The position numbers were made by a program, and so were the translations under genes. The notes under the pieces are model-generated. The model had not been told where the DNA came from. It ran no database searches and saw only the letters and a program-made list of their open reading frames with translations. This document shows, in pieces, positions 16,747 through 48,828 of a stretch of DNA of 52,366 bases. Source of the DNA: a virus (taxonomy: Duplodnaviria; Caudoviricetes); IMG/VR virus record IMGVR_UViG_3300032326_000835, positions 1-52,366 of that record, one strand, 5' to 3'. Every line of letters starts with the position of its first letter. Within the stretch, counting starts at the first letter, position 1.

Positions 16747-16772
16747 GTCCTGGGTATGACATAAACTGCCCA
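16747..16772 (+). ncRNA. repeated pseudoknot element copy 1
   Basis: GTC-CTGGGTAT-GAC-ATAAAC-TGCCCA. Confidence 0.65.
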
Positions 16773-16775
16773 CAT

Positions 16776-16848
16776 TGCCCTATAACTCAGATGGTAGAGT
16801 GCCGAACTGTTAATTCGGATGTCCCTGGATCGAGGCCAGGTGGGGCAG
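16776..16848 (+). tRNA. tRNA-Asn(GTT)
   Basis: Acceptor TGCCCTA/TGGGGCA; anticodon arm CCGAA-CTGTTAA-TTCGG; atypical T loop. Confidence 0.85.
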
Positions 16849-16899
16849 CAGATAGTGTATAATTGTTATGTCAAAGTAAAACAACAAAGGAGATAGACA

Positions 16900-17565
16900 G
16901 TGTTAAATTCAAATGTGCCCGTATTAAGGCCCAGCAAAGAGCATAAGTTTTTTGAAAGATATCTAGATAATGATTTAGAAGAGTTGTCAAAATTTTTAGA
17001 AAAAAAGTATGCGATGATTGAAAATGCAACCTTGCCTGGTGTAACATCAATGGAAAAAGATAAAGGAATTTTTCTAGAGTCTGGAAGTTTGTCAACAGTT
17101 AAATGGAAAGAATATAATGTGTTTCAGTTTTACCATGCATCTTTACACAAACTGTACAAAGCAATATCTGATACCGTCAAAGAAGCCTGCGAATACTATG
17201 AGGTAGATTTTGACAAGCAGGACTACTATATACAAGGCTGGTTTAACATTAATAGAGCAGAAGTAGGAAAGTTAGATTATCATGATCACGGGGCACCAGG
17301 CGCTCCAAACTTTCATGGCTACTACTGTGTAAATGCAGAGCCATCGATAACTCACTATAAATTATTTAATGATCCTTCACGAATTGTTGACAATGTAAAT
17401 AAAAATAACAGACTAGTGGTTTCAGAAGTTGGCCATCCACATGCTATGGGTGATTGGGACTGGACTGGACCAAGAATTACTATTGCGTATGATGTTCAGC
17501 CTTTAGAGGTATTGATTTCTGCAGGAAATACTATACCAGAGCAGCACTGGTTTCCATTACTATAG
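16900..17565 (+). CDS. putative 2OG-Fe(II) oxygenase / cupin
   Basis: WFNIN, HDH, GYYCV, H...RITIAYD. Confidence 0.65.
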   Translation: MLNSNVPVLRPSKEHKFFERYLDNDLEELSKFLEKKYAMIENATLPGVTSMEKDKGIFLESGSLSTVKWKEYNVFQFYHASLHKLYKAISDTVKEACEYYEVDFDKQDYYIQGWFNINRAEVGKLDYHDHGAPGAPNFHGYYCVNAEPSITHYKLFNDPSRIVDNVNKNNRLVVSEVGHPHAMGDWDWTGPRITIAYDVQPLEVLISAGNTIPEQHWFPLL

Positions 17566-17662
17566 TATGAAAATAATAATAAAAAAAATTAAAGCATACT
17601 TTTTATTGAGGAAGATAAGAAAAAATGGTAATCAAGATAGGTATATATACTAAGGATAAGAT

Positions 17663-19084
17663 GTGATAATTCTTGGAGTTAATGAAACCTCTCACGATGC
17701 TTCCGTGTCTTTGATTGAAAATGGGAAAATATTATTTGCTGGTCATGCAGAAAGATATAGTAAACAAAAAAATGACTGGTACATCAATGATAGTTTAATA
17801 AAAGATGCTTTACAGTATGGCAGACCAGATTGCCTTGCCTACTATGAAAAGCCTTTCCTAAAGGCCTCTAGGCTGCTTCTAAAGGGTGGTGCTGGAGACT
17901 GGAAGCCACGCTTTAATCTTACTGGTGTGCCAAGAAAATCCTTTGGACACCACTATTCTCATGCTGCTGCTGGATACTATACTAGTCCTTTTAATGATGC
18001 AGTAATAGTTGTTTTAGATGCTATTGGTGAATATAATACTTCTACCATCTGGGTTGGAGAAGGTAAAAAGATTAAACTAAAATATAAGCAAAACTATCCA
18101 ATTAGTTTTGGCTTATTTTATTCAGCGTTTACACAACTCATTGGACTTATGCCAAATCAAGAAGAATATATTATGATGGGAATGGCTGCATATGGTGATT
18201 GGAAAAAATACTATAAAAAAGTAGATAACTATTTCCCTAACTATCATACACAAAAATATAACTTTCATAAAGGTATAACTGATTGGGGATGGGTTTCTGA
18301 AGAAGATAAGTTTGATATTGCTGCTGCAGTACAGGCAGTGTATACAACAAGGCTTATGGAATTTATGTTTGAAGCAAAAGCAATTACTGGTAAAAAGAAT
18401 TTAGTATTTATGGGTGGGTGTGCCCTTAACTCATCAGCAAACACATCTTTGTGGAAATTATTTGATATGGTTTGGATAATGCCAAATCCTGGAGATGCTG
18501 GAAGTTCTTTAGGCGCTGCTGCTGCCCTGTATGGAGATCATGTTGAATGGAGTAGCCCATACATCGGATATGATCTTGGTGGAGAATATCCTATTCAAAA
18601 AATTGTTGACGGTATACTTAAAGATGGCATAGTAGCAGTTGCATCTGGTAGAGCAGAATATGGCCCAAGAGCATTGGGTAACAGATCAATTCTTGCAGAC
18701 CCAAGAGACCCATCAATAAAAGATAAGGTAAATAAGATTAAACAAAGAGAACTTTTTAGACCTTTTGCTCCTGTTGTTTTGGCTGACCATGCACATAAGT
18801 GGTTTGATATGGATTTTGAAAGCCCATATATGCAGTATACGGTCAAGTGTTTAAAACCAGAAAAGATACCCTCTGTAGTTCACGAAGATGGCACCTCTAG
18901 GGTTCAGACAGTTACAAGAGAGCAGCACCCAGGACTCTATAGGGTAATAAATAAGTTCTACCTTCAGACTGGAGTTCCAGTTCTTTTAAATACTAGTCTT
19001 AATATAAAAGGGCAGCCTCTTTTAAATGATGAAAACGATATACTTAAATGGGAAAAAGAATATAACTTTACAATATGTAGGTAA
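17663..19084 (+). CDS. carbamoyltransferase (NodU/CmcH/TobZ family)
   Basis: HDAS, HHYSHA, GGCALN, EYGPRALGNRS, RPFAP, LNTSLN. Confidence 0.93.
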   Translation: MIILGVNETSHDASVSLIENGKILFAGHAERYSKQKNDWYINDSLIKDALQYGRPDCLAYYEKPFLKASRLLLKGGAGDWKPRFNLTGVPRKSFGHHYSHAAAGYYTSPFNDAVIVVLDAIGEYNTSTIWVGEGKKIKLKYKQNYPISFGLFYSAFTQLIGLMPNQEEYIMMGMAAYGDWKKYYKKVDNYFPNYHTQKYNFHKGITDWGWVSEEDKFDIAAAVQAVYTTRLMEFMFEAKAITGKKNLVFMGGCALNSSANTSLWKLFDMVWIMPNPGDAGSSLGAAAALYGDHVEWSSPYIGYDLGGEYPIQKIVDGILKDGIVAVASGRAEYGPRALGNRSILADPRDPSIKDKVNKIKQRELFRPFAPVVLADHAHKWFDMDFESPYMQYTVKCLKPEKIPSVVHEDGTSRVQTVTREQHPGLYRVINKFYLQTGVPVLLNTSLNIKGQPLLNDENDILKWEKEYNFTICR

Positions 19085-19120
19085 CCTGGTATAATAGATA
19101 TGTCCTTAAGGAGGAATAAA

Positions 19121-19735
19121 ATGGCAGCAAAAGGTAGTCTAGACGCAATCATTGAGATTGCAAAGAAGGAAGTGGGCACAATAGAAGGCCCTAAAGATAA
19201 CGAAACAAAATACGGAAAGTGGACTGGAATGAATTTCCAACCATGGTGCCAATCCTTTGTTTCTTGGTGTGCATTCACATCTGGACTAGATCCAAAAAAG
19301 TATCCAAAGTCTGCATCAACAGTAGCAGCGTCAGATTGGTTCAAGAAAAATGAGCGCTGGTCAGATGCTCGCAATGATGACCCAACTCCAGGAGACTGGA
19401 TTTATTTTGATTTCCCAGAAGATGGTGTAAATCGTATTTCACATGTTGGTATTTGCATTAAGAATAACGGAGATGGAACCATTCAAGTTATTGAAGGAAA
19501 TACTTCAGGAACTGCAAAGGGAGATCAACGCAACGGCGGAATGTGCGTAGAAAAAACTCGTGCATATGTCAAGAACAACAAGAAGAAGTTAATTAATGGC
19601 ATTGTTGGCTGGGGCCGCCCAGTATATGCTGGAGAAGAAAATGCTCCATTGCTAAATAAAGTTGCATCGCAAGTTGCAGTAGTGCCTGCTGCTAAGGCAG
19701 TAGTTAAGAAACCAGCAGTTAAGAAGGCAAAATAA
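19121..19735 (+). CDS. CHAP-domain endolysin
   Basis: QPWC, SHVGI, IEGN; Ala/Lys-rich tail. Confidence 0.85.
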   Translation: MAAKGSLDAIIEIAKKEVGTIEGPKDNETKYGKWTGMNFQPWCQSFVSWCAFTSGLDPKKYPKSASTVAASDWFKKNERWSDARNDDPTPGDWIYFDFPEDGVNRISHVGICIKNNGDGTIQVIEGNTSGTAKGDQRNGGMCVEKTRAYVKNNKKKLINGIVGWGRPVYAGEENAPLLNKVASQVAVVPAAKAVVKKPAVKKAK

Positions 19736-19936
19736 ATGGAGTCAACAAAAAGAACACTACTCAAAACAGCAAGTTGGGAGACATTCCATCTTGTTGGTGT
19801 TGCTGGAGTAATTTATCTTTTTACTGGTGAATGGGAGTACGCAAGTCTAGGTGCACTTATTTATATTGGTTGGGAAGCCCTTGGGTACTTTCTACATGAA
19901 AGAGTGTGGGCAAAGTTTGGAAAAGGGGTAAAATAA
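19736..19936 (+). CDS. DUF2061-like membrane protein
   Basis: RTLLKTASW...YFLHERVW. Confidence 0.75.
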   Translation: MESTKRTLLKTASWETFHLVGVAGVIYLFTGEWEYASLGALIYIGWEALGYFLHERVWAKFGKGVK

Positions 19937-20043
19937 TGCGTATTAAAATTATTAAATTTGTAGTTAAAGCATTGGGTTATGAGTGGGGCGGAGATCAACT
20001 AAATCTACCTTATTGGACAGTAAAAGCAAAGAAGAAGTAACTC

Positions 20044-20229
20044 ATGGCATTGTACGAATATGATTGCATGCCATGTGCACAAAGATATACCAAGGAAAGA
20101 TCCATTAGAGAAGACGATCCTGGTTACAAGTGTGATAATTGCGATACTTCCTTGGTTCGTGTATATTCTAATGTTGGAGCAGTTTTCAACGGCAGTGGAT
20201 TTTATTCCACAGATAATAGGAAAAAGTGA
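20044..20229 (+). CDS. FmdB-family Zn ribbon protein
   Basis: YEYDCxxC..CxxC..FNGSGFYSTD. Confidence 0.85.
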   Translation: MALYEYDCMPCAQRYTKERSIREDDPGYKCDNCDTSLVRVYSNVGAVFNGSGFYSTDNRKK

Positions 20230-20837
20230 TAACTAGCATACCAGAAGGACAAATTTGTCAAGCATTTGATCCAAGAATGATTATGACTGACGAGATACTT
20301 CGCCGCCACCATGCCACTATTCAGCCTAATACATCTTGTATAGCGCCAGCGTATGTTTATGTGGAAGGAAAGCATGGCAAAAGGTTTCTTTGTGATACAC
20401 ACTACTACTACGAACTATACATGAATGGGCAAACCTATTCAGCCCCAAATCATTCTGTAAAAGAAATTTATCAATTTATAATAGACGAAACAGAAAGAGT
20501 TAAAGAAACTTTTGCAAAAAATGTAACAAGCACAGAAACGCTTGGTCATAAGTGTTGTTTAACTAATTACTACAATGGTGGTATAGGGTGTACTGCTGAT
20601 GCTTTAATAAAACTCAATGTCATAAAAATGCCTTTTGGCAAAGTAAATTTTATCTCAAATTTAGATCCAGACAATATTTCAAAAGATATGTTTTATTGTA
20701 ATTTTCACTTCAGAAGAACCTATTATAGATACGTTAATAATGGTGTTGTTTTTGAAAAATATTTTAAAGTGTTAGATGAAAGATACAGAATGACAATGAC
20801 TCTTGCTGAAGAAGCAGAAAGACTTACTTATCTGTAG
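20226..20837 (+). CDS. hypothetical Cys/His-rich protein
   Basis: 203 aa ORF with two C..CxxH repeats. Confidence 0.6.
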   Translation: MITSIPEGQICQAFDPRMIMTDEILRRHHATIQPNTSCIAPAYVYVEGKHGKRFLCDTHYYYELYMNGQTYSAPNHSVKEIYQFIIDETERVKETFAKNVTSTETLGHKCCLTNYYNGGIGCTADALIKLNVIKMPFGKVNFISNLDPDNISKDMFYCNFHFRRTYYRYVNNGVVFEKYFKVLDERYRMTMTLAEEAERLTYL

Positions 20838-20911
20838 CACATTCTTGACATCCTGTTCTTATTAGTATATAATTGAATATATTACAAACAATACAAGAAG
20901 TGGGGTATACT

Positions 20912-21166
20912 ATGAGTACAATGATTGAGACACCAGCAGAAGTAAAAGATTGGGTATTAAAAGCCACAGATCGATGTGATTCCTGCGCTGCAGAAGCCTT
21001 AGTCCAGGTCATAGGACTTAATGGAGAACTCTTGTTTTGTGGTCACCACTATAATAGTATAATGAGTAATCCAGCAGGGTATAAAAAGATGATGTCATTT
21101 ATGATAAGTATTGTAGATGAGAGAGACAAACTTATTGAAAACAAAGCAAAGGGGAAAGATTACTAA
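20912..21166 (+). CDS. small Zn-binding protein
   Basis: DRCDSC...LLFCGHH. Confidence 0.7.
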   Translation: MSTMIETPAEVKDWVLKATDRCDSCAAEALVQVIGLNGELLFCGHHYNSIMSNPAGYKKMMSFMISIVDERDKLIENKAKGKDY

Positions 21167-21573
21167 TGTATGAATACTATGTAAGAAAAGTAGAGAATGT
21201 TGTAGATGGAGATACCATTGATGTTCTTATTGATTTAGGGTTTGATGTCCTGTTTGCATCTCGTGTAAGGTTGGCTGGTATTGATACCCCAGAGTCTCGC
21301 ACAAAGGATCTTGCTGAGAAAGCACTTGGCCTAGAAGCCAAGGAGTACCTAAAGAAGGCTCTTAAGGATGCCAAGTCCGTTGTAATTAAGACTGAGAAGA
21401 TGAATTCATCTGAGAAGTATGGTCGCATTTTGGGCTGGGTATATGTAGATGGGAACACCGTATCTCTAAACGATATGATGATCAATGATGGCTACGCTTG
21501 GGGATATCTAGGTGACACTAAGGTTAAAGACTTTACTGCTCTTGCCAAGGCTAGGAAGAAGTCTGGCAAGTGA
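21166..21573 (+). CDS. thermonuclease (SNase family)
   Basis: VVDGDT, RLAGIDTPE, KYGRILG. Confidence 0.9.
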   Translation: MYEYYVRKVENVVDGDTIDVLIDLGFDVLFASRVRLAGIDTPESRTKDLAEKALGLEAKEYLKKALKDAKSVVIKTEKMNSSEKYGRILGWVYVDGNTVSLNDMMINDGYAWGYLGDTKVKDFTALAKARKKSGK

Positions 21574-21902
21574 GTGATGAATTTGACATTATTGATAATC
21601 TAATACTAAACGGAGGTTTAGAGTTTGCAGGAAAAGACTCTGAAACTGGAGAGCCATTATATAAGCCTACAGACAGACTTAAAGATATCGATGCTAGGCT
21701 TAGCGAGGAGATGTCTATATATTTTTCAGAGGTAACTTTAAAACTCTGGGAAAAGGGATTTCTTGATATGGATGTAACTCAAAAAGATCCAGTAGTCAAA
21801 CTTGGTCCAAAGTCTTTTGATGTTTCCTCTATAAAGTCATTGCCAAAAGATGAAAGAGTAGTCGTTGAAGAGATAGTTAAAGTTCTTTTCAATAAAAACT
21901 GA
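21570..21902 (+). CDS. hypothetical protein
   Basis: 110 aa; GTGA overlap. Confidence 0.6.
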   Translation: MSDEFDIIDNLILNGGLEFAGKDSETGEPLYKPTDRLKDIDARLSEEMSIYFSEVTLKLWEKGFLDMDVTQKDPVVKLGPKSFDVSSIKSLPKDERVVVEEIVKVLFNKN

Positions 21903-21926
21903 TATACTGGATGTATAGGGGTATTT

Positions 21927-22343
21927 ATGAATAACTTTTATGGTGCTATTGGAACAACAGTAACTATTCTTTTGCTAGTTTATATTTACATTCTTAAAAA
22001 TAATGTAAAAAATAATAGGCAGCCAATAATTAGTCAGGCCATGCTTCAGTATCGTTATAGTAATAGAAAAAATAATTCAAGAAAAATAAAAGTTAGAACT
22101 CAGTCAAAACTTCATTATGATAAGACTAACATAAAAGTTATTATTCTTGATAACGATGCATACTGGATCAAGGATAATATTTTTTATAAGGCACCATTAG
22201 TCAACGAACTTATCAATAAAGAAGAGGCCGAGCAAGTTGACACAATACACATGGATAAGGTACAATTAGACAAGATGTTGTTTATAATGGACAAACTAAG
22301 AGAAGGGATTGAGGATGATAGTAGGAGTTCAAGGGACGAGTAG
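21927..22343 (+). CDS. membrane-anchored hypothetical protein
   Basis: N-terminal TM helix. Confidence 0.6.
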   Translation: MNNFYGAIGTTVTILLLVYIYILKNNVKNNRQPIISQAMLQYRYSNRKNNSRKIKVRTQSKLHYDKTNIKVIILDNDAYWIKDNIFYKAPLVNELINKEEAEQVDTIHMDKVQLDKMLFIMDKLREGIEDDSRSSRDE

Positions 22344-22665
22344 TTTTGATAACTATCAGGTTTTCCTTAGATCTATGGCTGTTGCCCTTTCTGAGTTGTT
22401 AGAAAGCGACAAAGACTTTCATATATATTCTGCAGGACCAAATAATATTAATATGATGTCAATGGAGTTTACAAATCTATCCGAAAAAGGTATGAAGTCA
22501 AGAGGAAAAAATATTAAGTTTTTTAAAGTTTCTCCTCAGTGGTTAGAAGAAAATATATCTGAAGTAAATCATTTTGCTTTTTTATCTAATCCAAAAGAAC
22601 CAGTATCAAAGATTGTTCATATATCAAAACTAAATAATATAAATACAAATGTATATAACTTTTAA
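22315..22665 (+). CDS. SLOG/DUF2493-like protein
   Basis: MIVGVQGTSSFDNY N-terminus resembles the SLOG fold. Confidence 0.4.
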   Translation: MIVGVQGTSSFDNYQVFLRSMAVALSELLESDKDFHIYSAGPNNINMMSMEFTNLSEKGMKSRGKNIKFFKVSPQWLEENISEVNHFAFLSNPKEPVSKIVHISKLNNINTNVYNF

Positions 22666-23210: not shown

Positions 23211-23211
23211 A

Positions 23212-26318: not shown

Positions 26319-26723
26319 ATGGTAAAAACAGCACTGGATCTTTTTAATGATCCTTTTTTCAATACCTTCTCAAATCTTCAGAAGGTAACAACAACTACAA
26401 ACTATCCACCTTATAACCAGATTAAACTAAATGATACAGAGTATATTCTGTCATTTGCTTTGGCTGGTTTTTCTAAGGATGATGTCTCAGTATCGCTAGA
26501 CAATCGCAAACTTACAATCAAGGGCGAGAAGCAGGACACTGAGTTACCAGAGGGAGCAGAGTATCTACACAAGGGCATAGCAGCCCGAAAGTTCACAGAT
26601 ATCTTCACCCTTCCTGAATTTGTTGAGGTTATTGGGGCTGAATTCAAAGACGGTATCTTAGATATCAAACTTGAAAAACAGATACCAGAAGATAAACTAC
26701 CAAAGACCATTAAAATTAAGTAG
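26319..26723 (+). CDS. small heat shock protein Hsp20
   Basis: YPPYN, ALAGF, LHKGIAARKF, AEFKDGIL. Confidence 0.93.
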   Translation: MVKTALDLFNDPFFNTFSNLQKVTTTTNYPPYNQIKLNDTEYILSFALAGFSKDDVSVSLDNRKLTIKGEKQDTELPEGAEYLHKGIAARKFTDIFTLPEFVEVIGAEFKDGILDIKLEKQIPEDKLPKTIKIK

Positions 26724-26736
26724 TATAATGGTTAAC

Positions 26737-26850
26737 ATTCCGATATAAGACTTTAAAAGGTTTTACAACGGATGCTCCTATGAGAGGAGAGTTAGCAGGA
26801 GTCGAATCTTCGTGGCTAATAGACCTGAGCAGTCGTCTATAAACTGCTCA
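26737..26850 (+). ncRNA. candidate structured ncRNA A (ends in pseudoknot copy 2)
   Basis: TATAAT at 26724; three helices then TAGAC-CTGAGCAGTC-GTCTA-TAAAC-TGCTCA. Confidence 0.55.
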
Positions 26851-26872
26851 CTTACTATGCTACAATTATATT

Positions 26873-26956
26873 GTCCCACACAGGACCTTAGTGATGGATT
26901 AGTTACCCATTTGATAGAGACCGTGGCGCAAGTCAGGTGAATTGCTTGTGTGGGAC
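26873..26956 (+). ncRNA. candidate structured ncRNA B
   Basis: TGcTACAAT 6 nt upstream; 12-bp closing stem GTCCCACACAGG/CTTGTGTGGGAC. Confidence 0.6.
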
Positions 26957-26983
26957 CCAACATTTTGCGGTATAATAATAACA

Positions 26984-27253
26984 ATGACTGACAAAGAGTT
27001 AGACCATTATAATAAGCAGCAGTATAAGAAGATGCTTGCCAAGATAAAAGAGGATTCTGGCTGTGTAGATTGTGGTGTTGGCAATCATATAATCCTAGAC
27101 TTTGATCATATAAGAGACAAAAAATACAATATATCTAGAATGATCCATGATGGTTTTTCATGGAAATCTATAAAGAAAGAGATTGAGAAGTGCGAAGTAG
27201 TCTGCGCCAATTGTCATAGGATAAGGACTCATCATCGCTTAAATGGCCAATAG
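26984..27253 (+). CDS. small HNH endonuclease, leaderless
   Basis: CVDC, FDH, CANCHRIRT; TATAAT at 26971. Confidence 0.85.
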   Translation: MTDKELDHYNKQQYKKMLAKIKEDSGCVDCGVGNHIILDFDHIRDKKYNISRMIHDGFSWKSIKKEIEKCEVVCANCHRIRTHHRLNGQ

Positions 27254-28901: not shown

Positions 28902-28929
28902 AACCACAGTATAGCACAATCATATTTTG

Positions 28930-29002
28930 TACCCCTGGCAAGAATCGAACTTGCGACGCATGGCTTAGAAGTCCATCGTTCTGTCCACTGAACTACAGAG
29001 GT
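28930..29002 (-). tRNA. tRNA-Arg(TCT)
   Basis: Cloverleaf; loop CTTCTAA; TTCGATT. Confidence 0.9.
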
Positions 29003-29003
29003 G

Positions 29004-29089
29004 TGGCGGAAGTAATAGGATTCGAACCTATGGATCTTTCAATCTACGATTTAGCAAACCGCTGCATTCGACCACTCTGCCATACTTCC
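29004..29089 (-). tRNA. tRNA-Ser(GCT)
   Basis: Long variable arm; loop TTGCTAA; encoded CCA. Confidence 0.9.
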
Positions 29090-29090
29090 G

Positions 29091-29163
29091 TATCTCCAAC
29101 GGGATTCGAACCCGTGTTGCCACCGTGAAAGGGTGGAGTCCTAGGCCTCTAGACCATGGAGAC
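29091..29163 (-). tRNA. tRNA-Glu(TTC)
   Basis: CCACC-CTTTCAC-GGTGG. Confidence 0.92.
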
Positions 29164-29164
29164 T

Positions 29165-29238
29165 TGGAGCGGATGATCAGAATCGAACTGACCCCTTCTG
29201 CTTGGAAGGCAGAGGCACTACCAATATGCAACATCCGC
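29165..29238 (-). tRNA. tRNA-Gly(TCC)
   Basis: TCTGC-CTTCCAA-GCAGA; encoded CCA. Confidence 0.92.
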
Positions 29239-29242
29239 ATCG

Positions 29243-29316
29243 TACATCTGGAAGGACTTGAACCTTCGGCTCTCTGCATATAAGGCAGGTACTCTAACCA
29301 ACTGAGTTACAGATGT
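29243..29316 (-). tRNA. tRNA-Ile(TAT)
   Basis: Acceptor ACATCTG/CAGATGT; loop CTTATAT. Confidence 0.85.
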
Positions 29317-29320
29317 GTAG

Positions 29321-29394
29321 TACACCAGGTAGGACTTGAACCTACGATAACCGAATTATGAGTTCGGGGCCTTAACCAACTTGGCTACTGGTGC
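29321..29394 (-). tRNA. tRNA with CAT anticodon (Met or Ile2)
   Basis: CCGAA-CTCATAA-TTCGG. Confidence 0.88.
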
Positions 29395-42597: not shown

Positions 42598-42799
42598 GGG
42601 GTTCCTTTGTTAGTGGGTATATATCAAGTATAGCCGAAACCTGGGAAAATATCAAGTCTGTCGTAAAGAATTTTTGGTTTGACATTTTGGGGAAAAGGTT
42701 TGATGATCGTAAAGTTTATTTTGTTTGACATTTTTATGTCCGATATGTCTGGTTTGGTCCACGTGCGATTTTTTATGCATTGTGCTGCATATTTATTTG

Positions 42800-42873
42800 C
42801 GAAGCGTACGGGACTTGAACCCGTGATCTCTACCGTGACAGGGTAGCGCATTAACCAACTATGCTAACGCTCC
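42800..42873 (-). tRNA. tRNA-Asp(GTC)
   Basis: GGAGCGT/ACGCTTC acceptor; CTACC-CTGTCAC-GGTAG; TTCAAGT. Confidence 0.92.
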
Positions 42874-42878
42874 ATGCG

Positions 42879-42904
42879 AGGCAGTTTTAATTCATGCCTA
42901 GGAA
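42879..42904 (-). ncRNA. repeated pseudoknot element copy 3
   Basis: TTC-CTAGGCAT-GAA-TTAAAAC-TGCCT. Confidence 0.6.
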
Positions 42905-42910
42905 ATTGTA

Positions 42911-43933
42911 TCATGCGAGAGACATTACATTCTGCACAACTTTTAGCAGACGATTTTTCTCTGCGTTAATTGCAGGGTCAAAGCCTGATGCTGATGCAAG
43001 GATTGATTCGTTAGAACCACCACGAGCAGAGCGATACCAATCAAGGCGCTCAGTAAGTGCATTGAACGCACCCCAAGCATTACCAGCAATCATGCCATTG
43101 AATTCGCCAGTGTAAATATCGTTGATTACATCAACTTTATTTTCCCACTTCTTGCTTGAACCCTTAGCATCTTTTTCTGGCTTAGGATATGCAGCAAGAA
43201 TGATGTCGTTGAATTGCTTAGCATTGACTTCCTTCTCGAACATAGCCTTAGCCATGATGTCGAATTCGTCCATGTATGCATTAGCAAGACCAAGAGTCTC
43301 ACGAGCAATCTGCACCTTACCATTGGCGGTTTGAGTGTGGCGAATCTTGAAAGATTGCTTGATGCCCTTATTTTTCTTACGACCTACGCCACCAAGAGCA
43401 AGGTTAAGAGTATTAGCGCACACAACACGAACAGGTGTTATGCTTGCTTGAATGGCAATAGAACCATCGTGTGATGTGTTGATAAGTAGATAAGTTTTAA
43501 CCTTATCACTTACGCCGTTAGGGTCTAGGATTGTTTCACGCTCTAGTGCAAGAGCACCGAATACAACACGACCACCCTTGATTGAGCCAGCGGTCTCCCA
43601 ACGACCACCACCGTCTAGGATATTATCACCGAATGAGAATAAATCTTCATTCTGCAATGGGTGATAACGCTCACCAACGATGCCAAGAACATCTGTCTGT
43701 GTGTTATCGGTAGGATTTGTTCGCAAGACATATTGGTATGCCTTGTCGCTTGTTAGATGTGTAGGGGTTTCCAAATCTTCCAGACGAACATTCCAACCAT
43801 TAAGATTTGCTGCGGACAACATTTCTGCGGTTGTTTTTTCTTCTGTGAATACGGTTCCCAATCCATGCCAAGCAGGTTCACGGAAAGATGCGAATGATGT
43901 TTTTCCGTTTTGTGTTTCTAGGTCATGTGCCAT
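42911..43933 (-). CDS. DUF932 / TIGR03299 family protein
   Basis: Start MAHDLE; PAWHGLG, ETAGSIKGG, NTSHDGS, TPVRVVCANT. Confidence 0.88.
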   Translation of the reverse strand: MAHDLETQNGKTSFASFREPAWHGLGTVFTEEKTTAEMLSAANLNGWNVRLEDLETPTHLTSDKAYQYVLRTNPTDNTQTDVLGIVGERYHPLQNEDLFSFGDNILDGGGRWETAGSIKGGRVVFGALALERETILDPNGVSDKVKTYLLINTSHDGSIAIQASITPVRVVCANTLNLALGGVGRKKNKGIKQSFKIRHTQTANGKVQIARETLGLANAYMDEFDIMAKAMFEKEVNAKQFNDIILAAYPKPEKDAKGSSKKWENKVDVINDIYTGEFNGMIAGNAWGAFNALTERLDWYRSARGGSNESILASASGFDPAINAEKNRLLKVVQNVMSLA

Positions 43934-43964
43934 GAGTTTTCTCTTTTCTGTTGTTGTTAATTTA

Positions 43965-44110
43965 AGTATACACCGACCCACTGACAAATGCAAATCGGGA
44001 TAGTTAAACAGGGGATAAATCGGACATTCCTTAATGTGATTAAATTCACATGATCGTAAAGGCGTGTCGTAACTTATCCACAAGTTATCCACAGGCCCAC
44101 GTGCAATTTT
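43965..44110 (-). promoter_or_regulatory. regulatory module: PafBC-type promoter 3, CRP box, GACAC motif, 2 DnaA boxes, CACGTG
   Basis: Promoter 43965-43986; TGTGA-N6-TCACA 44035; GGCGTGTCG 44061; TTATCCACA 44074, 44085; CACGTG 44098. Confidence 0.75.
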
Positions 44111-44127
44111 TGCAGGAAAATAAAAAG

Positions 44128-44157
44128 TGAGCAGTTTACATGGCCATGCTCAGGGCC
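44128..44157 (-). ncRNA. repeated pseudoknot element copy 4
   Basis: GGCC-CTGAGCAT-GGCC-ATGTAAAC-TGCTCA. Confidence 0.65.
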
Positions 44158-44203
44158 CTCACCTAGTTTAGAGACATTCGGCATGTCTATTAGTAGCCCC
44201 CTA

Positions 44204-44635
44204 CTAAAAATCAATCCTGTCTACACTTGAAGAAAGCCAAGTAATATTATCAGAATTATATGATACAGATTCAAAATCAATATCATTTACAATTGATTCA
44301 ACATCCTCATCGTGAGGTACCTGCAGTGTTAAGTTATAAGTTACGGTAACCTCAACTTCAACTTCCTTGATTAATTCAAAGCCACAGATTTCTGCAATCT
44401 CATTTGCTTGGTCCTCTGTGATTCCACCGTCAGAAAGTTCTTTCATTGTCCACTCGTGCATTGCGTCACGCATTGACTGTGTTGCATTCTGTGCTTTGTA
44501 GACATTCTGTGACATCTCTGAAGAGCGCTCCTGCAATGACAGGATTAATGCATCTTTTCTTTGAAGTGATTCCCTAAATGATTCAATCTGATTATTAAGG
44601 AATTCTGTTGTTGCATTTGTTACGGTTTGGTCCAT
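44204..44635 (-). CDS. coiled-coil hypothetical protein
   Basis: 143 aa; AAAGAGG RBS. Confidence 0.65.
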   Translation of the reverse strand: MDQTVTNATTEFLNNQIESFRESLQRKDALILSLQERSSEMSQNVYKAQNATQSMRDAMHEWTMKELSDGGITEDQANEIAEICGFELIKEVEVEVTVTYNLTLQVPHDEDVESIVNDIDFESVSYNSDNITWLSSSVDRIDF

Positions 44636-44665
44636 GGGGGCCTCTTTCTATTGTTGGTTTACTTA

Positions 44666-44687
44666 AGTATACTACTGGCCACTGACA
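44666..44687 (-). promoter_or_regulatory. PafBC-type promoter 4
   Basis: TGTCAG-TGGCCAGTAG-TATACT. Confidence 0.7.
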
Positions 44688-44708
44688 ATTGTCAAGGACC
44701 CTTGCGGG

Positions 44709-44735
44709 GAGCCTTTTCCCTACATGCTCAGGTAG
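44709..44735 (-). ncRNA. repeated pseudoknot element copy 5
   Basis: CTAC-CTGAGCAT-GTAG-GGAAAAG-GCTC. Confidence 0.6.
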
Positions 44736-44843
44736 TATGGGTTCTTTCAGTCCCCCAATGAACTGTGCTCTATAGTATTTCTGTGATCGCCCTAATCAGC
44801 CTGGCGAATTGGAGTGGGGCTTTTACACCCCACCCAACCTCAT

Positions 44844-45269
44844 TTAGAGATAACGAGCCACCGCATTGTATGTGGAAGTATTTACAACTTCCTCATCTGT
44901 CATTTTGAGGATACGAATTGCGTTCGTGATTTCCTCTTTCATTTCCTTATAGGTATGAGTATGAATAACCTCAAAGTCCTTTTCAGGTTCAGCAGGGAAC
45001 TCATTTTCATTGGCTACTACAATATCAAAATCAACATTGAGATTGTTATTCCAAGAACGATAGTTAGTGCGAAGGTTGATTGCCTTTGAGAAATTAGCAA
45101 TAGCCCACTTACCAATTTCTGTTTTCCATGCTTCATATGCGATTAGGTGCTTTCGTTCGTTTTCACCTTGTGTTGCGTAGTCCATCTCTAGTTTTGCTAG
45201 TGATGCTTCTAGTCCTGCGATTACTCGTTGAGTAGGGATTTTTACTGAGATTGCTTTGCCTCTTGCCAT
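44844..45269 (-). CDS. hypothetical protein
   Basis: 141 aa; followed by GTGGGG/CCCCAC hairpin. Confidence 0.7.
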   Translation of the reverse strand: MARGKAISVKIPTQRVIAGLEASLAKLEMDYATQGENERKHLIAYEAWKTEIGKWAIANFSKAINLRTNYRSWNNNLNVDFDIVVANENEFPAEPEKDFEVIHTHTYKEMKEEITNAIRILKMTDEEVVNTSTYNAVARYL

Positions 45270-45311
45270 TTGTTTTCTCTTTTCTGTTGTGGGGTGTTAG
45301 TTGGGGGTTTG

Positions 45312-45341
45312 TGAGCCTTTTGACAACTTGCTCAGGTTGTC
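45312..45341 (-). ncRNA. repeated pseudoknot element copy 6
   Basis: GACAAC-CTGAGCAA-GTTGTC-AAAAG-GCTCA. Confidence 0.65.
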
Positions 45342-45405
45342 CCACTCTATTTATTTAGACACGCATTTCTGTGGGGCGTGTTTGGTTTTGGCGTTATTGC
45401 CAAAC

Positions 45406-45570
45406 TTACTTGGCTGTCCAAGTTGTGTAACGGGTTGCACCTGCTACATCTAACTTAACACGAACATTACCATTTGCCTGTGGTGTGATTTCTGTGATGA
45501 TACCACTTACCTTTGACTTTTGTGTTGTGTAGGTATCGCCTACCTTGTATGTTGCTGTTGCTACTGCCAT
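45406..45570 (-). CDS. small SH3-like beta protein (not in ORF track)
   Basis: MAVATATYKVGDTYTTQKSKVSGII..; own TTGACA-N18-TATACT promoter. Confidence 0.65.
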   Translation of the reverse strand: MAVATATYKVGDTYTTQKSKVSGIITEITPQANGNVRVKLDVAGATRYTTWTAK

Positions 45571-45675
45571 TTTTTTCTCTTTTCTGTTTAGGGGTTGTTA
45601 TTTGGTTATACCTAAGTATAACATTTTGTAAATAAAAATGTCAAATCGAAACCTGACATTTCTCACATATTGAGA

Positions 45676-45846
45676 TTACTTAGATGTCTTGACCATAGCC
45701 AAGCGACGAGAGCCGTTTGCTAGGACAAGTGAAACTCTAGTAACCTTATTAGACATTGGTGTAAAACCTGCGATACGACCTGTAACGCCTGTCTTGCTTG
45801 TTGTAAATAAATCACCAATTTGGTAAGTGTATCCATGAAGTGTCAT
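45676..45846 (-). CDS. small SH3-like beta protein, paralog of the previous gene
   Basis: TYQIGDLFTTSKTGVTGRI; AAAGG RBS. Confidence 0.65.
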   Translation of the reverse strand: MTLHGYTYQIGDLFTTSKTGVTGRIAGFTPMSNKVTRVSLVLANGSRRLAMVKTSK

Positions 45847-46083
45847 TTGGGTCTTGCCTTTCTTTGTGGGGGTTAATTGCTTATAGTATAATTTTAGCAG
45901 AAAAATGTCATAAATGCTAATTCTAGGGGGGTTTTGGGGTGTGTTCTTAAACACATCTTAAAGGCGTGTCGCAACTTGACAAATTAAGTTTTGCCGACGT
46001 GGATCCCTGCAATTTTTATTGGTGGAAAAATAAAAGTACTATGCACCAAATTAAAAATATTATTTGCAGGGAATTCATTTATC

Positions 46084-46818
46084 TCATTTCTTAGTTGCAG
46101 AAAAAATTATGTCACTCTTAGAGTATACACACAATGAGCAAGAAACGCAAGCGCTACCTTTTTCTGATATTAGTTTAATTTGTTTATTATTTTCAGGACA
46201 TTTAGCAGCAGGCTTACCAATCATTTCTTTTACATCGGCCTGGCCAATTGCAAAATTCTTAGCAAGATATGCCATGCGAACCCCGCTATTAATTTTTAAA
46301 TCAACGGCAGTTTTAACATTCTCACTATCTGCAGAAAAATACAATGATAAATTAGATACATCCTTAAGGATAAGCGCTGCAGACTTAACTCGTGTGTATA
46401 CCCAAAATTGAATGTCAGGATTATTTTCAATTACAACTTTCCAGGCATTAGTATATGTATCATTAAAAAAGTCTCCGTCCCAGTGGATACGGAACAACTT
46501 AGGGGCATTTTTCTTTTCACAATCTGCAATAAACTCATCAATCATTTCAGAAAGTAGCATGAGCATAGTTAGACCGTCTGCGTCTTTTAGCAGGGACCAA
46601 TTGTGTAGTAGGTTAACCTTTACGGTAGGGAAGACCTTTTCCAATTTGCCTGCATAGCAAACACTCTCGCAGACACTCGTAGCGCCAGGACATGAATAAG
46701 CCTTTCCTGCAGGTAGGCCAAAGGTATTTGCGATACTTGCTTGTTTTCCATTAGGGGTGACGGCATTAGCAACCTTTCTATCTTTTGATCTTTTTAGTTT
46801 AAGTGTATTAGTAGTCAA
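46084..46818 (-). CDS. Gp88-like Fe-S (radical-SAM-like) phage protein
   Basis: CPGATSVCESVCYA, FRIHWDGDF, CVSCSLC. Confidence 0.75.
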   Translation of the reverse strand: MTTNTLKLKRSKDRKVANAVTPNGKQASIANTFGLPAGKAYSCPGATSVCESVCYAGKLEKVFPTVKVNLLHNWSLLKDADGLTMLMLLSEMIDEFIADCEKKNAPKLFRIHWDGDFFNDTYTNAWKVVIENNPDIQFWVYTRVKSAALILKDVSNLSLYFSADSENVKTAVDLKINSGVRMAYLAKNFAIGQADVKEMIGKPAAKCPENNKQIKLISEKGSACVSCSLCVYSKSDIIFSATKK

Positions 46819-47015
46819 GGCCTAGGCTCATTTCTAATGCAATGTCTTCATTATACATTGCGGACATTTCTTCTAGTAAGCAATGGGTGCATTTTTCTTC
46901 ATATGCGTCAACCGCATTTTCTTTACATTCAGGGCAGGTAGTTGCATAGTATTCGTCATAGAACTCATCTGATATATTTCCCATGGGGGCTATTCTCCTT
47001 TTTGTTGATATTTTA

Positions 47016-47037
47016 ATTGTAGCATTTCGGACTGACA
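47016..47037 (-). promoter_or_regulatory. PafBC-type promoter 5
   Basis: TGTCAG-TCCGAAATGC-TACAAT. Confidence 0.7.
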
Positions 47038-47148
47038 TTTTCTACCCTTGCGAGAGTAGGCCTTTTTAGAGGGAACGGCAGAGGCAGCATTGCTACGGCG
47101 TAATTCCATAAGCCTGCGTAATTCCTCTGGTGTTTTTTTCATATAATA

Positions 47149-47220
47149 ATCTTAGCATACAGGGGAAAAAATATCAACTTCTTAAATGTGATAAATCTCA
47201 CAAGGGCGGGACGTGCATTT
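47149..47220 (-). promoter_or_regulatory. regulatory module: sigmaA promoter, CRP box, GACGTGC
   Basis: TTGATA-N17-TAAGAT; TGTGA-TAAATC-TCACA 47187-47202. Confidence 0.65.
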
Positions 47221-47496
47221 CTGTGCGGGGAAGCACACAAAAATACTTTTAACTATTCTTCTTCTTCAATAAAAACATATAACTTAAATACATGTTCATA
47301 GTTGCAAATAAAAACATCTTCCTCACCATAGTCATTACGATAAGTAATTGTGTAATTATCTCCAGTAGCATCATCTTCAATTGATATTACATCAACAATA
47401 ACACCTTCAATCTCTACAAGATCATTTTCCATTAACTGGCTAGGTGTTAGTAGGTCTGCATATACAAGTTCCATGCTGTTTATTGTATCAGACATT

Positions 47497-47781
47497 CTAA
47501 TCCTCCCAATCGGGTAGCCAAAACGATAGGTGGTGTTGGTCTACAATCGCTCTTGCAGGTGCTTGAGTTTCTCCACGATAGAGAATCTGAAAGTCACCAA
47601 CCTTTGGCATATCAATCATGCGCTCATAGTCCTCATCATAGTAAGCGTCAATAGCCTCGATACAAGGTTGCACCATTTCTGCGGGGACTGGAGGGTAGTG
47701 ATTACCCTTTAGGTGATAAAGAATCTGAGTTTCTAAATCCAAGACTGTATCCTGAATTCCTAACGCTGTAACTGCTCCCAT
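47497..47781 (-). CDS. hypothetical phage protein
   Basis: HLKGNHYPPVP motif; in compact operon 47253-48517. Confidence 0.65.
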   Translation of the reverse strand: MGAVTALGIQDTVLDLETQILYHLKGNHYPPVPAEMVQPCIEAIDAYYDEDYERMIDMPKVGDFQILYRGETQAPARAIVDQHHLSFWLPDWED

Positions 47782-48549
47782 ATTATTTCACACTCACATT
47801 TCCATTACGATAGAAGGTCTTGGTATACATTTTACCCGTAGGGTCTGACAAGTTATATGTTGCATATTCCTTAGCATCGCCATAGTCCACACACTTATTC
47901 CATGCAGTTACTATTTCTAGCATATCTGCGGTGCGTGTTGTTGATACAAGTTCGCCGTCATAGGCGATAGTAAGTGAGTAGTTATATTCCATTAGTCGTT
48001 CTCCTTAGTAGTAAATAGTGCGCCTTCATTAAGCAAGCCTAACTCTAAATTAAATAGTTCATCGCTATTAGCCTTAGACAAGTCTATCCAACCTGCGCCA
48101 TCGTTGTCAATTCTAAATATCTCTACATATCCCATTAGTGTTGTTCCTCGCAATTCTCTGAATAGTTAAACTCACAATAGTAGCAACCCATAGTTTCTCC
48201 ATGAGCCTTGCATACATATTTAAATTGTAATTCATCGCAACACAATAGTTGCTCATCTTTAATTAAATAGAATTCGTTTTGGTCAATATAGGTATCTATC
48301 ATTATGCACCAACCTTTACTGCAACTGTGCGATAAGTTTTGCGACCCCAATTATTGTAACCGCTATTGGGTGCAACCTCTACAAGATAGGTTTCGCAACC
48401 CTCATACCAAACTGCGTGAGGGTGAGGCTCTGCACTTACAATTTCACCTTGCAAGGTGCGTGATGAGTAATTTGTTCCCACTAGAAGGGACTGGACTGTA
48501 TATACATTTGCTGACATAGTGTCACCGCTTTCTTTTTCTTGATAATTCT

Positions 48550-48571
48550 ATCTTAGCATAGGGGACTGACA
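48550..48571 (-). promoter_or_regulatory. PafBC-type promoter 6
   Basis: TGTCAG-TCCCCTATGC-TAAGAT. Confidence 0.7.
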
Positions 48572-48632
48572 TTTTCGGTTAGCCCCGCCGTAGCGGATAG
48601 ACTTTCTTTTATTTATTTTTTCTTACTATGTA

Positions 48633-48790
48633 AGTCTAGCCTATCAGACATAAATTATCAACTTACTAGCCAGTAAATCCAAATAGTGAGACGCTCAAGT
48701 CGTGTGATTAATCTCACAAAACTTCGGGCGTGTCGTACACAGCCTCTTAAACACTTGTGGATAAACCTGTGGATAAGTCCCACGTCCAAT
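48633..48790 (-). promoter_or_regulatory. regulatory module: sigmaA promoter, CRP box, GACAC motif, 2 DnaA boxes, CACGT
   Basis: CRP 48703-48718; GGCGTGTCG 48727; TGTGGATAA 48756, 48768; CACGT 48781. Confidence 0.75.
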
Positions 48791-48801
48791 TTTTGAAGTG
48801 T

Positions 48802-48828
48802 TGAGCAGTTTTAGATCTTGCTCAGGAT
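48802..48828 (-). ncRNA. repeated pseudoknot element copy 7
   Basis: ATC-CTGAGCAA-GAT-CTAAAAC-TGCTCA. Confidence 0.65.

What the first reader, a model, noticed from the sequence alone, without database searches (positions are those of the whole stretch)
16747..48828. Seven-copy small RNA pseudoknot with compensatory base changes
Seen: the pattern P1-CTGAGCA(T/A)-P1'-(N)AAA(C/G)-(T)GCTCA occurs at 16747(+), 26820(+), 42879(-), 44128(-), 44709(-), 45312(-) and 48802(-). P1 differs in every copy yet pairs (GTC/GAC, TAGAC/GTCTA, TTC/GAA, GGCC/GGCC, CTAC/GTAG, GACAAC/GTTGTC, ATC/GAT). P2 also covaries (TGGGTA/TGCCCA, AGGCA/TGCCT, TGAGCA/TGCTCA). Every copy is on the transcribed strand and downstream of a gene or RNA. 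Inference: an H-type pseudoknot with an A-rich loop acting as a 3' end protector, processing or termination signal, or protein-binding site.
Basis: partly seen in the sequence, partly recalled or inferred. Interest (0 to 1): 0.8.

Follow-up and report, generated by a model that had tools for sequence, protein, structure and literature searches.

The report
Phage RNA pseudoknot capping transcript ends
A 25-30 base RNA pseudoknot recurs seven times in this phage and hundreds of times in other phages, always just after genes and often just before a tRNA, a self-cleaving ribozyme or a terminator T-run, so it most likely caps and protects RNA 3' ends.

Summary
All seven sites exist. A covariance model built only from 87 copies in other contigs ranks them as the top seven hits in the window and finds no further copy.

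The fold is an H-type pseudoknot: P1 (3-6 bp, closing C:G), L1 CU, P2 GAGCA/UGCUC, a 1-nt junction and an AAAC-ended L3. P1 is always paired with 3-4 pair types per position. Of 36 non-consensus P2 versions, 35 stay fully paired.

No Rfam 15 family matches it. A capped scan gave 138 copies in 120 viral contigs, plus prophage or MAG copies assigned to many phyla.

Position argues for a role at RNA 3' ends:
- It is intergenic and co-oriented with genes.
- It lies at least 9 nt after the stop codon in 176 of 178 cases, piling up at 9-10 nt.
- Same-strand tRNAs lie 4-13 nt downstream in 15 of 132 copies.
- Type III hammerheads start 0-5 nt downstream in 3 copies.
- T-runs follow in 30 of 189 copies against 2.9 expected.

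Best reading: a 3'-end cap or stabiliser. This function is inferred, not shown.

The parts
16747..16772 (+). Copy 1. P1 GTC/GAC, L1 C(U), P2 UGGGUA/UGCCCA (compensatory variant), L3 AUAAAC. It lies 5 nt after the stop of ORF 15845-16741 and 3 nt before tRNA-Asn (16776-16849).
26819..26850 (+). Copy 2. P1 AUAGAC/GUCUAU, 3-nt junction GUC, L3 AAAC, P2 UGAGCA/UGCUCA. It follows a conserved structured non-coding stretch (26724-26818). An extended -10-like TGCTACAAT lies about 10 nt downstream.
42878..42904 (-). Copy 3. P1 UUC/GAA, P2 UAGGCA/UGCCU(C) (compensatory variant). It lies 6 nt after the stop of the DUF932 gene 42911-44092 and 4 nt before tRNA-Asp (42799-42873).
44128..44157 (-). Copy 4. 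P1 GGCC/GGCC, L3 AUGUAAAC, consensus P2. It is followed at once by CTTTTTATTTT (44127-44117), so it looks like a terminator.
44709..44735 (-). Copy 5. P1 CUAC/GUAG, 'AAAAG-GCUC' subclass. It is followed by a small GCAA-loop hairpin and the promoter-like TTGACA-18-TATACT at 44695-44666.
45312..45341 (-). Copy 6. P1 GACAAC/GUUGUC, 'AAAAG-GCUCA' subclass. It lies between the 54-aa ORF 45406-45570 and gene 44844-45269, inside one operon downstream of the promoter-like site 45644-45615.
48802..48828 (-). Copy 7. P1 AUC/GAU, consensus P2. It lies 9 nt after the TGA stop of ORF 48838-49044. An AAAAATTGGACGTGGG box and TTATCCACA repeats follow.
16776..16849 (+). tRNA-Asn. Its 5' end (the RNase P cleavage site) lies 3 nt after copy 1.
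42799..42873 (-). tRNA-Asp. Its 5' end lies 4 nt after copy 3.

Best explanation
The element is a compact H-type RNA pseudoknot on the sense strand of phage transcripts.

Its parts are:
- P1, 3-6 bp of variable sequence with a closing C:G pair.
- A 2-nt L1, CU.
- P2, GAGCA paired with UGCUC.
- A one-base junction.
- L3, which ends in AAAC.

Most likely it is a 3'-end cap. It sits in the 3' UTR as close to the stop codon as a terminating ribosome allows. It ends up at or within a few bases of the RNA 3' end made by one of three devices: RNase P cutting at a downstream tRNA, a downstream hammerhead cutting itself, or termination at a U-tract. Where none of these is adjacent, 3'-to-5' trimming from further downstream would reach it. 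There it would block 3'-to-5' exonucleases and so stabilise the upstream message or small RNA.

Shown: the fold (by covariation), the strand, the intergenic placement, the 9-nt rule and the downstream neighbours.
Inferred: that RNA ends really lie there, and that the knot protects them.
For: Fold:
- P1 pairs 5:16 and 4:17 are Watson-Crick in 87 of 87 copies, with 3 and 4 pair types. None of 500 shuffles reaches the observed covariation score. Sliding the partners drops pairing from 87.5% to 25-36%.
- With P2 left free in the search, there were 176 anchors against 5 in reversed sequence. Of 36 non-consensus P2 versions, 35 are fully paired; shuffled partners give a mean of 17.6 and a maximum of 24 in 2000 shuffles.
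- U.G wobbles occur only on this strand: GAGU with GCUC in 12 copies.

Placement:
- 2 of 189 copies lie inside a same-strand ORF.
- The nearest upstream ORF is on the same strand in 164 cases and on the other strand in 16.
- Apart from the window, whose two gene blocks have opposite directions, no locus has copies on both strands.
- The distance from the end of the stop codon to L1 has a hard floor: 26 copies at 9 nt, 16 at 10 nt, and only 2 of 178 below 9.
- The floor is repeated in the independent genome set: 8 at 9 nt, 7 at 10 nt, 1 of 27 below 9.
- The distance to the next start codon shows no such pile-up.

Downstream neighbours that make a 3' end:
- A same-strand tRNA lies 4-13 nt downstream in 15 of 132 unique copies. 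Only one tRNA lies upstream, 100 nt away. Window copies 1 and 3 sit 3 and 4 nt before a tRNA.
- Type III hammerheads begin 0-5 nt after the motif in L149 (two copies) and in L007. The cleavage sites lie 6 and 13 nt after UGCUC.
- At least 6 T in 8 bases start within 2 nt of the motif in 30 of 189 copies, against 2.9 expected from 1123 control positions.

Literature: Perreault et al. 2011 inferred that hammerheads cut long phage transcripts into gene-length mRNAs (PMC3088659, passages read).
Against: - No RNA end was mapped. The only RNA data are metatranscriptome contigs of 90-95% relatives, which cannot show ends.
- About three quarters of copies have no adjacent tRNA, ribozyme or T-run, so for them the 3' end would have to arise by trimming from further downstream.
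- A passive barrier does not obviously need L1, P2 and L3 to be conserved across contigs of 23-73% G+C. That conservation points to a special tertiary fold or a trans-acting reader.
- With 4 + 5 base pairs the knot is not very stable on paper.
- Several copies lie only 12-20 nt before the next start codon with no promoter between. They are therefore internal to polycistronic RNA and must be read through.
Confidence: 0.5

Rival explanations
1. The pseudoknot is a transcription terminator module. P2 acts as the terminator hairpin, pre-organised by P1, and stops RNA polymerase. Copies without a U-tract would be weak or conditional terminators or pause sites.
For: T-runs are enriched about ten-fold directly after P2, 30 of 189 against 2.9 expected. 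Window copy 4 is followed by CTTTTTATTTT. Many copies, including window copies 2 and 5, are followed by a promoter-like site and so sit at the end of a transcription unit.
Against: By that test 159 of 189 copies have no T-run. Copies lie 12-20 nt before a start codon, or 3-13 nt before a tRNA that must still be transcribed. RNA-library contigs from two runs bridge copy 6 at 45219-45468, a weak point because DNA may be present in those libraries. A terminator does not explain the hammerhead partners.
Confidence: 0.15
2. The knot is a sequence-specific binding site for a trans-acting protein or RNA, from phage or host. That factor would regulate stability, processing or translation of the flanking genes. 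The knot merely presents L1, P2 and L3.
For: Sequence is strongly conserved in L1 (CU), P2, L3 (AAAC) and the base after P2 (A in 156 of 189), while P1 varies freely. There are multiple dispersed copies per genome.
Against: No protein family is consistently encoded next to it. DUF932 flanks 23 of 117 upstream and 12 of 137 downstream sides, and the rest are diverse. Copies occur in contigs assigned to many phyla and over a wide G+C range, so the factor would have to be near-universal.
Confidence: 0.12
3. The knot mimics a tRNA acceptor stem and is itself cut by RNase P in L1 (CU|G), or by RNase Z after the base following P2. It would punctuate polycistronic phage RNA without needing a tRNA.
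For: Small H-type pseudoknots carrying a 3' RCCA are cut in loop 1 by bacterial and archaeal RNase P RNA in vitro, and U is preferred at -1 (PMC12710915; abstract, outline and introduction read). The motif has U before P2, a G:C first pair, A after P2 in 156 of 189 copies and then C in 96 of 189. RNase P is near-universal, which would fit the wide spread.
Against: ACCA follows P2 in only 20 of 189 copies. RNase P recognition would not explain the conserved P2 and L3 sequence. A cut in L1 would strip the upstream mRNA of any structure. Placing a hammerhead or a tRNA right after a self-sufficient processing signal would be redundant. The paper reports low efficiency for such substrates.
Confidence: 0.08
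4. The knot is a folding insulator or ribosome stop-sign. It would shield a downstream structured RNA (tRNA, ribozyme, small RNA) or the next cistron from upstream sequence and from ribosomes that read through or slide past the stop codon.
For: It abuts tRNAs, hammerheads, an Rfam DUF2800 RNA (L024: motif 260-284, RNA 285-445) and structured RNA at window copy 2. The 9-nt floor equals the reach of a terminating ribosome; that ribosome geometry is recalled, not tested.
Against: Most copies precede ordinary leaders or promoters rather than structured RNAs. More than half lie more than 12 nt from the stop and up to several hundred nt away, so contact with the ribosome is not obligatory.
Confidence: 0.07
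5. The knot is a new minimal self-cleaving ribozyme or a small-ligand aptamer.
For: It has a pseudoknot, many near-invariant bases and a multi-phylum spread, which Weinberg et al. 2017 take as marks of a sophisticated RNA (PMC5737381, passage read). It shares contigs with hammerhead and hatchet ribozymes.
Against: It is only about 25 nt long. It matches no ribozyme or riboswitch model. The flanking genes share no pathway. The adjacent hammerheads suggest that it does not cut itself. RNA-library contigs span copy 6, a weak point.
Confidence: 0.04

Closest known systems
Luteovirus-type -1 frameshift pseudoknots such as that of beet western yellows virus (recalled, not fetched here)
   Same: Same size class (about 26-28 nt) and layout: a short S1, a 2-nt L1 beginning with C, one unpaired junction base and an A-rich last loop placed to lie in the S1 minor groove. 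Both sit 4-6 nt downstream of the codon in the ribosomal A site.
   Different: This motif follows stop codons in intergenic DNA. There is no slippery heptamer and no overlapping frame, and only 2 of 189 copies lie inside an ORF. It is dispersed after many unrelated genes.
MALAT1 / MEN-beta triple helix upstream of the tRNA-like mascRNA (recalled)
   Same: A compact tertiary structure lies just 5' of a tRNA(-like) element, so that RNase P cleavage leaves the structure as a protective 3' end.
   Different: That system is eukaryotic, uses a U-rich/A-rich triple helix and is a single locus. Here the structure is a 25-nt pseudoknot in phages, paired with real tRNAs, hammerheads or U-tracts, and protection is not yet shown.
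REP elements and terminator hairpins as bacterial 3' mRNA stabilisers (recalled)
   Same: Repeated, intergenic, co-oriented with transcription, placed in 3' UTRs, and proposed to stall 3' exonucleases.
   Different: Those are long G+C-rich nested hairpins confined to particular genomes. This is a short pseudoknot with conserved loops, found across very different phages.
Pseudoknot substrates of RNase P: the TYMV tRNA-like structure and the biotin-aptamer pseudoknot (PMC12710915)
   Same: H-type knot. U precedes the 5' strand of the second stem, and an A and C(C) follow its 3' strand.
   Different: RCCA is present in only a minority of copies, 20 of 189. Cleavage was not tested.
preQ1-I riboswitch aptamer
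   Same: A very small H-type knot with an A-rich 3' loop followed by the second-stem strand.
   Different: There is no hit to the Rfam model. The junction is 1 nt rather than a ligand pocket. It is not upstream of queuosine genes, and it sits in 3' UTRs.

Membership tests
Any Rfam 15 family | Match to a curated covariance model | tested here: not met
   The gathering scan of the window found only 8 tRNAs. Scans at E up to 10 of 44050-45400 and 26600-27050 gave no sense-strand match on any motif site.
preQ1-I riboswitch | Location in the 5' UTR of queuosine or preQ1 genes | tested here: not met
   Flanking genes are diverse (DUF932, Hsp20, RNR, PhoH, helicases). The motif is anchored to upstream stop codons.
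-1 frameshift or readthrough stimulatory pseudoknot | Compact H-type knot 5-9 nt after the recoding site | tested here: met
   P1 starts 4-6 nt after the stop codon in the commonest class.
-1 frameshift or readthrough stimulatory pseudoknot | Slippery site, or an extended or overlapping ORF through the knot | tested here: not met
   Only 2 of 189 copies lie inside a same-strand ORF. Leaders, promoters or tRNAs follow.
Intrinsic (Rho-independent) terminator | Hairpin directly followed by a U-tract | tested here: inconclusive
   Met in 30 of 189 copies, ten-fold above the control, and absent in 159.
Hammerhead ribozyme | CUGANGA ... GAAA core with three stems | tested here: not met
   The motif reads CUGAGCA and lacks the core, and no Rfam hit falls on it. 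True hammerheads lie next to it, not in it.
RNase P pseudoknot substrate / tRNA-like acceptor mimic | 3' RCCA after the second stem | tested here: inconclusive
   A follows P2 in 156 of 189 copies, C comes next in 96 of 189, and a full ACCA occurs in 20 of 189.
RNase P pseudoknot substrate / tRNA-like acceptor mimic | Cleavage by RNase P | not testable with these tools
   This needs an enzyme assay.
3' exonuclease-blocking stabiliser (REP-like) | Repeated element in 3' UTRs, co-oriented with genes | tested here: met
3' exonuclease-blocking stabiliser (REP-like) | Stalls PNPase or RNase II and prolongs the upstream mRNA half-life | not testable with these tools
   This needs half-life and nuclease assays.
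Type III toxin-antitoxin RNA (ToxI-like pseudoknot repeats) | Tandem array of repeats of about 35 nt next to a ToxN-family gene | tested here: not met
   Copies are single and kilobases apart. No such neighbouring gene family was found.

The most novel reading that the evidence does not exclude
The knot is not a passive barrier. It is the smallest natural 'sophisticated' RNA: a roughly 25-nt acceptor-stem-like pseudoknot that a universal enzyme (RNase P or RNase Z) or its own chemistry cuts. That would give phages of many phyla a tRNA-free punctuation mark for polycistronic transcripts. It would also answer the question left open in PMC12710915, whether RNase P targets pseudoknots in vivo.
Probability: 0.1. 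Interest if true: 0.9.

Novelty: new variant of a known kind. Interest (0 to 1): 0.76.

Why it matters
If the reading holds, phages of many hosts share a portable 25-base module that defines and protects RNA 3' ends. It works together with tRNAs, ribozymes and terminators.

That would:
- explain why tRNAs and hammerheads sit where they do in phage operons;
- give a prokaryotic counterpart to the way MALAT1 matures its 3' end;
- supply a very small, context-independent stabiliser for synthetic biology;
- improve phage annotation, because the motif marks the strand and the ends of genes.

Even without a settled function, it is an abundant structured RNA class with textbook covariation that Rfam 15 does not hold.

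Tried and rejected
DNA-level element (promoter, protein operator, ssDNA hairpin): rejected. Both helices covary. U.G wobbles occur on the sense strand only. The motif never comes closer than 9 nt to the upstream stop codon, which makes sense only for RNA on the translated message. The distance to downstream promoter-like sites varies from 1 to 15 nt.

Riboswitch and frameshift signal: rejected. See the membership tests.

Known family: none of the following named this motif.
- Rfam scans.
- Five full-text searches.
- Passages of two 2026 preprints on intergenic motif mining.
I therefore cannot state that it is unpublished.

Cultured relatives:
- The window is about 50-55% identical in protein to Streptomyces BE/BK-cluster phages.
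- Phage NootNoot has no copy; the 2 loose pattern hits lack AAAC.
- No near-DNA match in the phage collection was found for the window or for L172. L185 matched only two prophage-like pieces.
- The phage collection cannot be pattern-scanned, so no cultured carrier was identified.

RNA evidence: six lake-water and one wastewater RNA libraries hold 5-7% of the sampled words. Four of them were laid and gave short contigs, mostly 90-95% alike, so they come from relatives. Contigs cannot show ends. Parts without cover, such as copy 4, say nothing. The 'joints' between 48802, 44708, 45292 and 42867 are cross-matches between motif copies.

Neighbouring protein partner: none was found.

No structure prediction, protein search or complex prediction was needed.

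Full report
WHAT THE WINDOW IS

The window is a whole IMG/VR virus record of 52,366 bases, 37% G+C, estimated 48% complete. It encodes a DnaE-like polymerase about 55% identical to those of Streptomyces phages such as BillNye. It also encodes a terminase, a DUF932 protein whose best relatives are in Streptomyces BE-cluster phages, and 8 tRNAs. Genes run on the + strand up to about 28.4 kb and on the - strand from there to about 49 kb.

THE OBSERVATION

I read all seven sites. Each has the order P1(5') - C - U - GAGCA-like - one base (three in copy 2) - P1(3') - N(0-4)AAAC/AAAAG - (U)GCUC(A). P1 differs in every copy apart from an invariant closing C:G. Copies 1 and 3 carry compensatory P2 versions: UGGGUA/UGCCCA and UAGGCA/UGCCU.

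The strict pattern matches 3 times against 0.00 in 100 shuffles. E-values run from 7.6e-12 to 2.4, and nothing further is found.

THE FOLD IS REAL

A capped scan of viral contigs for CCTGAGCA-N(4-14)-AAACTGCTCA returned 120 loci with 138 matches. P1 was not part of that pattern, yet all 138 have at least 3 P1 pairs.

The same pattern in 596 Gb of prokaryote genomes should hit about 190 times by chance (my arithmetic, assuming equal base frequencies). The 118 loci returned split cleanly. Forty-eight have P1 of at least 3 bp, and 41 of these have the 7-nt middle. Seventy have 0-2 pairs and scattered spacer lengths. This is a built-in control.

On the 87-copy alignment:
- pair 6:15 is C:G in 87 of 87;
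- pair 5:16 is paired in 87 of 87, with UA, AU and CG;
- pair 4:17 is paired in 87 of 87, with GC, AU, UA and CG;
- pair 3:18 is paired in 70 of 87.
None of 500 shuffles reaches the covariation score. Sliding the partners drops pairing from 87.5% to 25-36%.

For P2 I anchored on everything except its four inner pairs. That gave 176 anchors against 5 in reversed sequence. Of these, 140 are consensus. Of the 36 others, 35 are fully paired; examples are AAGC/GCUU, GGAC/GUCC, GGCC/GGCC, GAAC/GUUC, AGAC/GUCU and GAGU/ACUC. Shuffled partners give a mean of 17.6 and a maximum of 24 in 2000 shuffles.

Anchoring on CTGAGCA alone gave 166 occurrences with P1 of at least 3 bp. Of these, 144 have TGCTC within 18 nt and 11 have the AAAAGGCTC variant seen in window copies 5 and 6. 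Of the 138 occurrences with P1 of at most 2 bp, 119 have neither.

U.G wobbles on this strand (GAGU with GCUC, 12 copies) point to RNA of the sense strand.

The two helices interleave, so they form an H-type pseudoknot. L1 is 2 nt. P1 length plus L3 length is roughly constant at about 10 nt. By the usual loop-length rules (recalled) this is sterically reasonable.

NOT A CATALOGUED FAMILY

Rfam 15 gives no match on any site. Five literature searches and passages from two 2026 preprints did not name it. Supplements could not be read.

WHERE IT SITS

Among 189 unique copies:
- 2 lie inside a same-strand ORF;
- the nearest upstream ORF is on the same strand in 164 cases and on the other strand in 16;
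- no locus other than the window has copies on both strands.

The number of bases between the upstream stop codon and the L1 C has a hard floor at 9. Twenty-six copies are at 9, 16 at 10, then there is a long tail. Only 2 of 178 are below 9, and one of those is window copy 1, at 8. The independent genome set repeats this: 8 at 9, 7 at 10, 1 of 27 below 9.

The floor equals the reach of a ribosome with the stop codon in its A site, given a leading edge near +15/16 and duplexes allowed from about +11. That geometry is recalled knowledge and was not tested here. The knot is therefore part of the upstream gene's mRNA and is placed as close as it can be without being unwound. The distance to the next start codon has no such pile-up.

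WHAT FOLLOWS IT

- A same-strand tRNA begins 4-13 nt downstream in 15 of 132 unique copies. Only one tRNA lies upstream, 100 nt away, and none is on the other strand within 300 nt. Window copies 1 and 3 are 3 and 4 nt before tRNA-Asn and tRNA-Asp.
- Type III hammerhead ribozymes start right after the motif in two unrelated lineages. L149 has two copies. One is an Rfam Hammerhead_3 hit at 50.5 bits, above the gathering score; the second rests on the regular-expression match alone. In both, stem III begins at the A after UGCUC and the cut lies 6 nt after UGCUC. In L007 a full-length hit of 32.1 bits (E 2.8e-5) begins 5 nt after the motif, and the cut lies 13 nt after UGCUC.
- A T-run (at least 6 T in 8) starts within 2 nt in 30 of 189 copies, against 2.9 expected from 1123 shifted control positions. 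Window copy 4 is one of these.
- In L024 the motif (260-284) abuts an Rfam DUF2800 RNA (285-445).

Other copies are followed by promoter-like sites (window copies 2 and 5) or by C/A-rich leaders and a start codon (copy 6).

Three different devices each make an RNA 3' end a few bases after the knot. None was found just upstream of it.

INTERPRETATION

The simplest account is a 3'-end cap: a compact knot that remains at the 3' end of the upstream RNA after RNase P cleavage, ribozyme cleavage, termination or trimming, and that hinders 3' exonucleases.

Perreault et al. 2011 had proposed that hammerheads cut long phage transcripts into gene-length mRNAs (PMC3088659, passages). The knot would be the protective end of such pieces.

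The layout resembles luteoviral frameshift knots, and the arrangement with tRNAs resembles MALAT1-mascRNA. Both comparisons are recalled.

The open problem is the strong sequence conservation of L1, P2 and L3 across contigs of 23-73% G+C and many assigned phyla. It suggests either a demanding tertiary fold or a reader molecule. The rivals are therefore kept:
- Terminator module.
- Binding site for a trans-acting factor.
- RNase P or RNase Z substrate. In vitro precedent exists in PMC12710915 (abstract and introduction read).
- Folding insulator or ribosome stop-sign.
- Ribozyme or aptamer.

RNA-library contigs from lake water, from relatives 90-95% alike, span copy 6 in two runs. This is a weak hint that this copy is read through and is not fully cleaved.

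SPREAD

Seventy-eight of the 239 loci form one nucleotide-similarity cluster with the window. These look like freshwater phages. The rest fall into 142 small groups. Copy density is similar in both, about 0.15-0.17 per kb of locus. Host labels of MAG contigs are unreliable. Two isolate genomes (Lacticaseibacillus, Ligilactobacillus) carry it, and the first is in a prophage-like region.

VERDICT

This is a real, abundant and apparently uncatalogued phage RNA pseudoknot. Its function as a 3'-end cap is well motivated by position but unproven.

Noticed in passing
window 26724-26818 (+) and 26872-26957 (+): Two structured non-coding stretches flank copy 2. The upstream one, about 95 nt, is conserved in at least 9 other loci and ends in a T-arm-like GGAG-UCGAAU-CUUC. 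The downstream one is a long hairpin behind an extended -10-like TGCTACAAT. The whole stretch 26724-26960 folds with z = -3.2. There is no meaningful Rfam match; the only hit up to E 10 is a weak opposite-strand one (E 3.4).
   Followed up: partly
window 44050-44112 (-) and 48720-48795 (-); also 42760-42775 (-): After copies 4 and 7, and after tRNA-Asp, comes a shared box AAAAAT(T/C)G(C/G)ACGTGG. After copies 4 and 7 this is followed by two DnaA-box-like TTATCCACA / TGTGGATAA repeats and by ACGACACGCC. This could be an origin or a regulated early promoter region.
   Followed up: no
window 42690-42745 (-), 48565-48580 (-); L086, L113, L119: A recurrent AAAATGTCA(A/G)ACC box and TTTACGA(C/T)CA boxes lie in the promoter-rich intergenic regions. 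They are candidate binding sites for a phage regulator.
   Followed up: no
window 44783-44804 (-); L056, L119: A conserved hairpin, UUCGCC-AGGCUGAUUAG-GGCGA, lies between gene 44844-45269 and copy 5. It is preceded by a 10-bp hairpin at about 44812-44842. It may be part of a small RNA.
   Followed up: no
window 45572-45607 (-) and 45270-45311 (-); many loci: The 5' leaders are G-poor and C/A-rich, with a shared ...CCCC(U)AA(C)ACAGAAAAGAGAAAA-AUG. The leader after copy 6 closely resembles the leader of the primary transcript from the promoter-like site at 45644-45615.
   Followed up: partly
L088 2975-3112 (+); L109 5649-5733 (+); L042 11778-12019 (+); L004 2105-2185 (+): Motif-bearing contigs also carry a Hatchet ribozyme, a RAGATH-1 hammerhead (placed before an ORF whose stop is followed by a motif copy), a permuted tmRNA and a tmRNA-like hit.
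   Followed up: partly
window 16767-16782 (+): The variant P2 3' strand of copy 1 (UGCCCA) is nearly repeated 3 nt later by the first bases of tRNA-Asn (UGCCCUA). The P1 loop could therefore pair with either. This may be chance or an alternative pairing.
   Followed up: no
window 28929-29394 (-): A cluster of six tRNAs (Arg, Ser, Glu, Gly, Ile, Met) with 0-3 nt spacers has no pseudoknot copy in front of it.
   Followed up: partly
window 42700-49000: Lake-water metatranscriptome libraries from several studies hold contigs 90-99% alike to the early-region genes, so relatives of this phage occur in lakes. DNA carry-over in those libraries cannot be excluded.
   Followed up: partly
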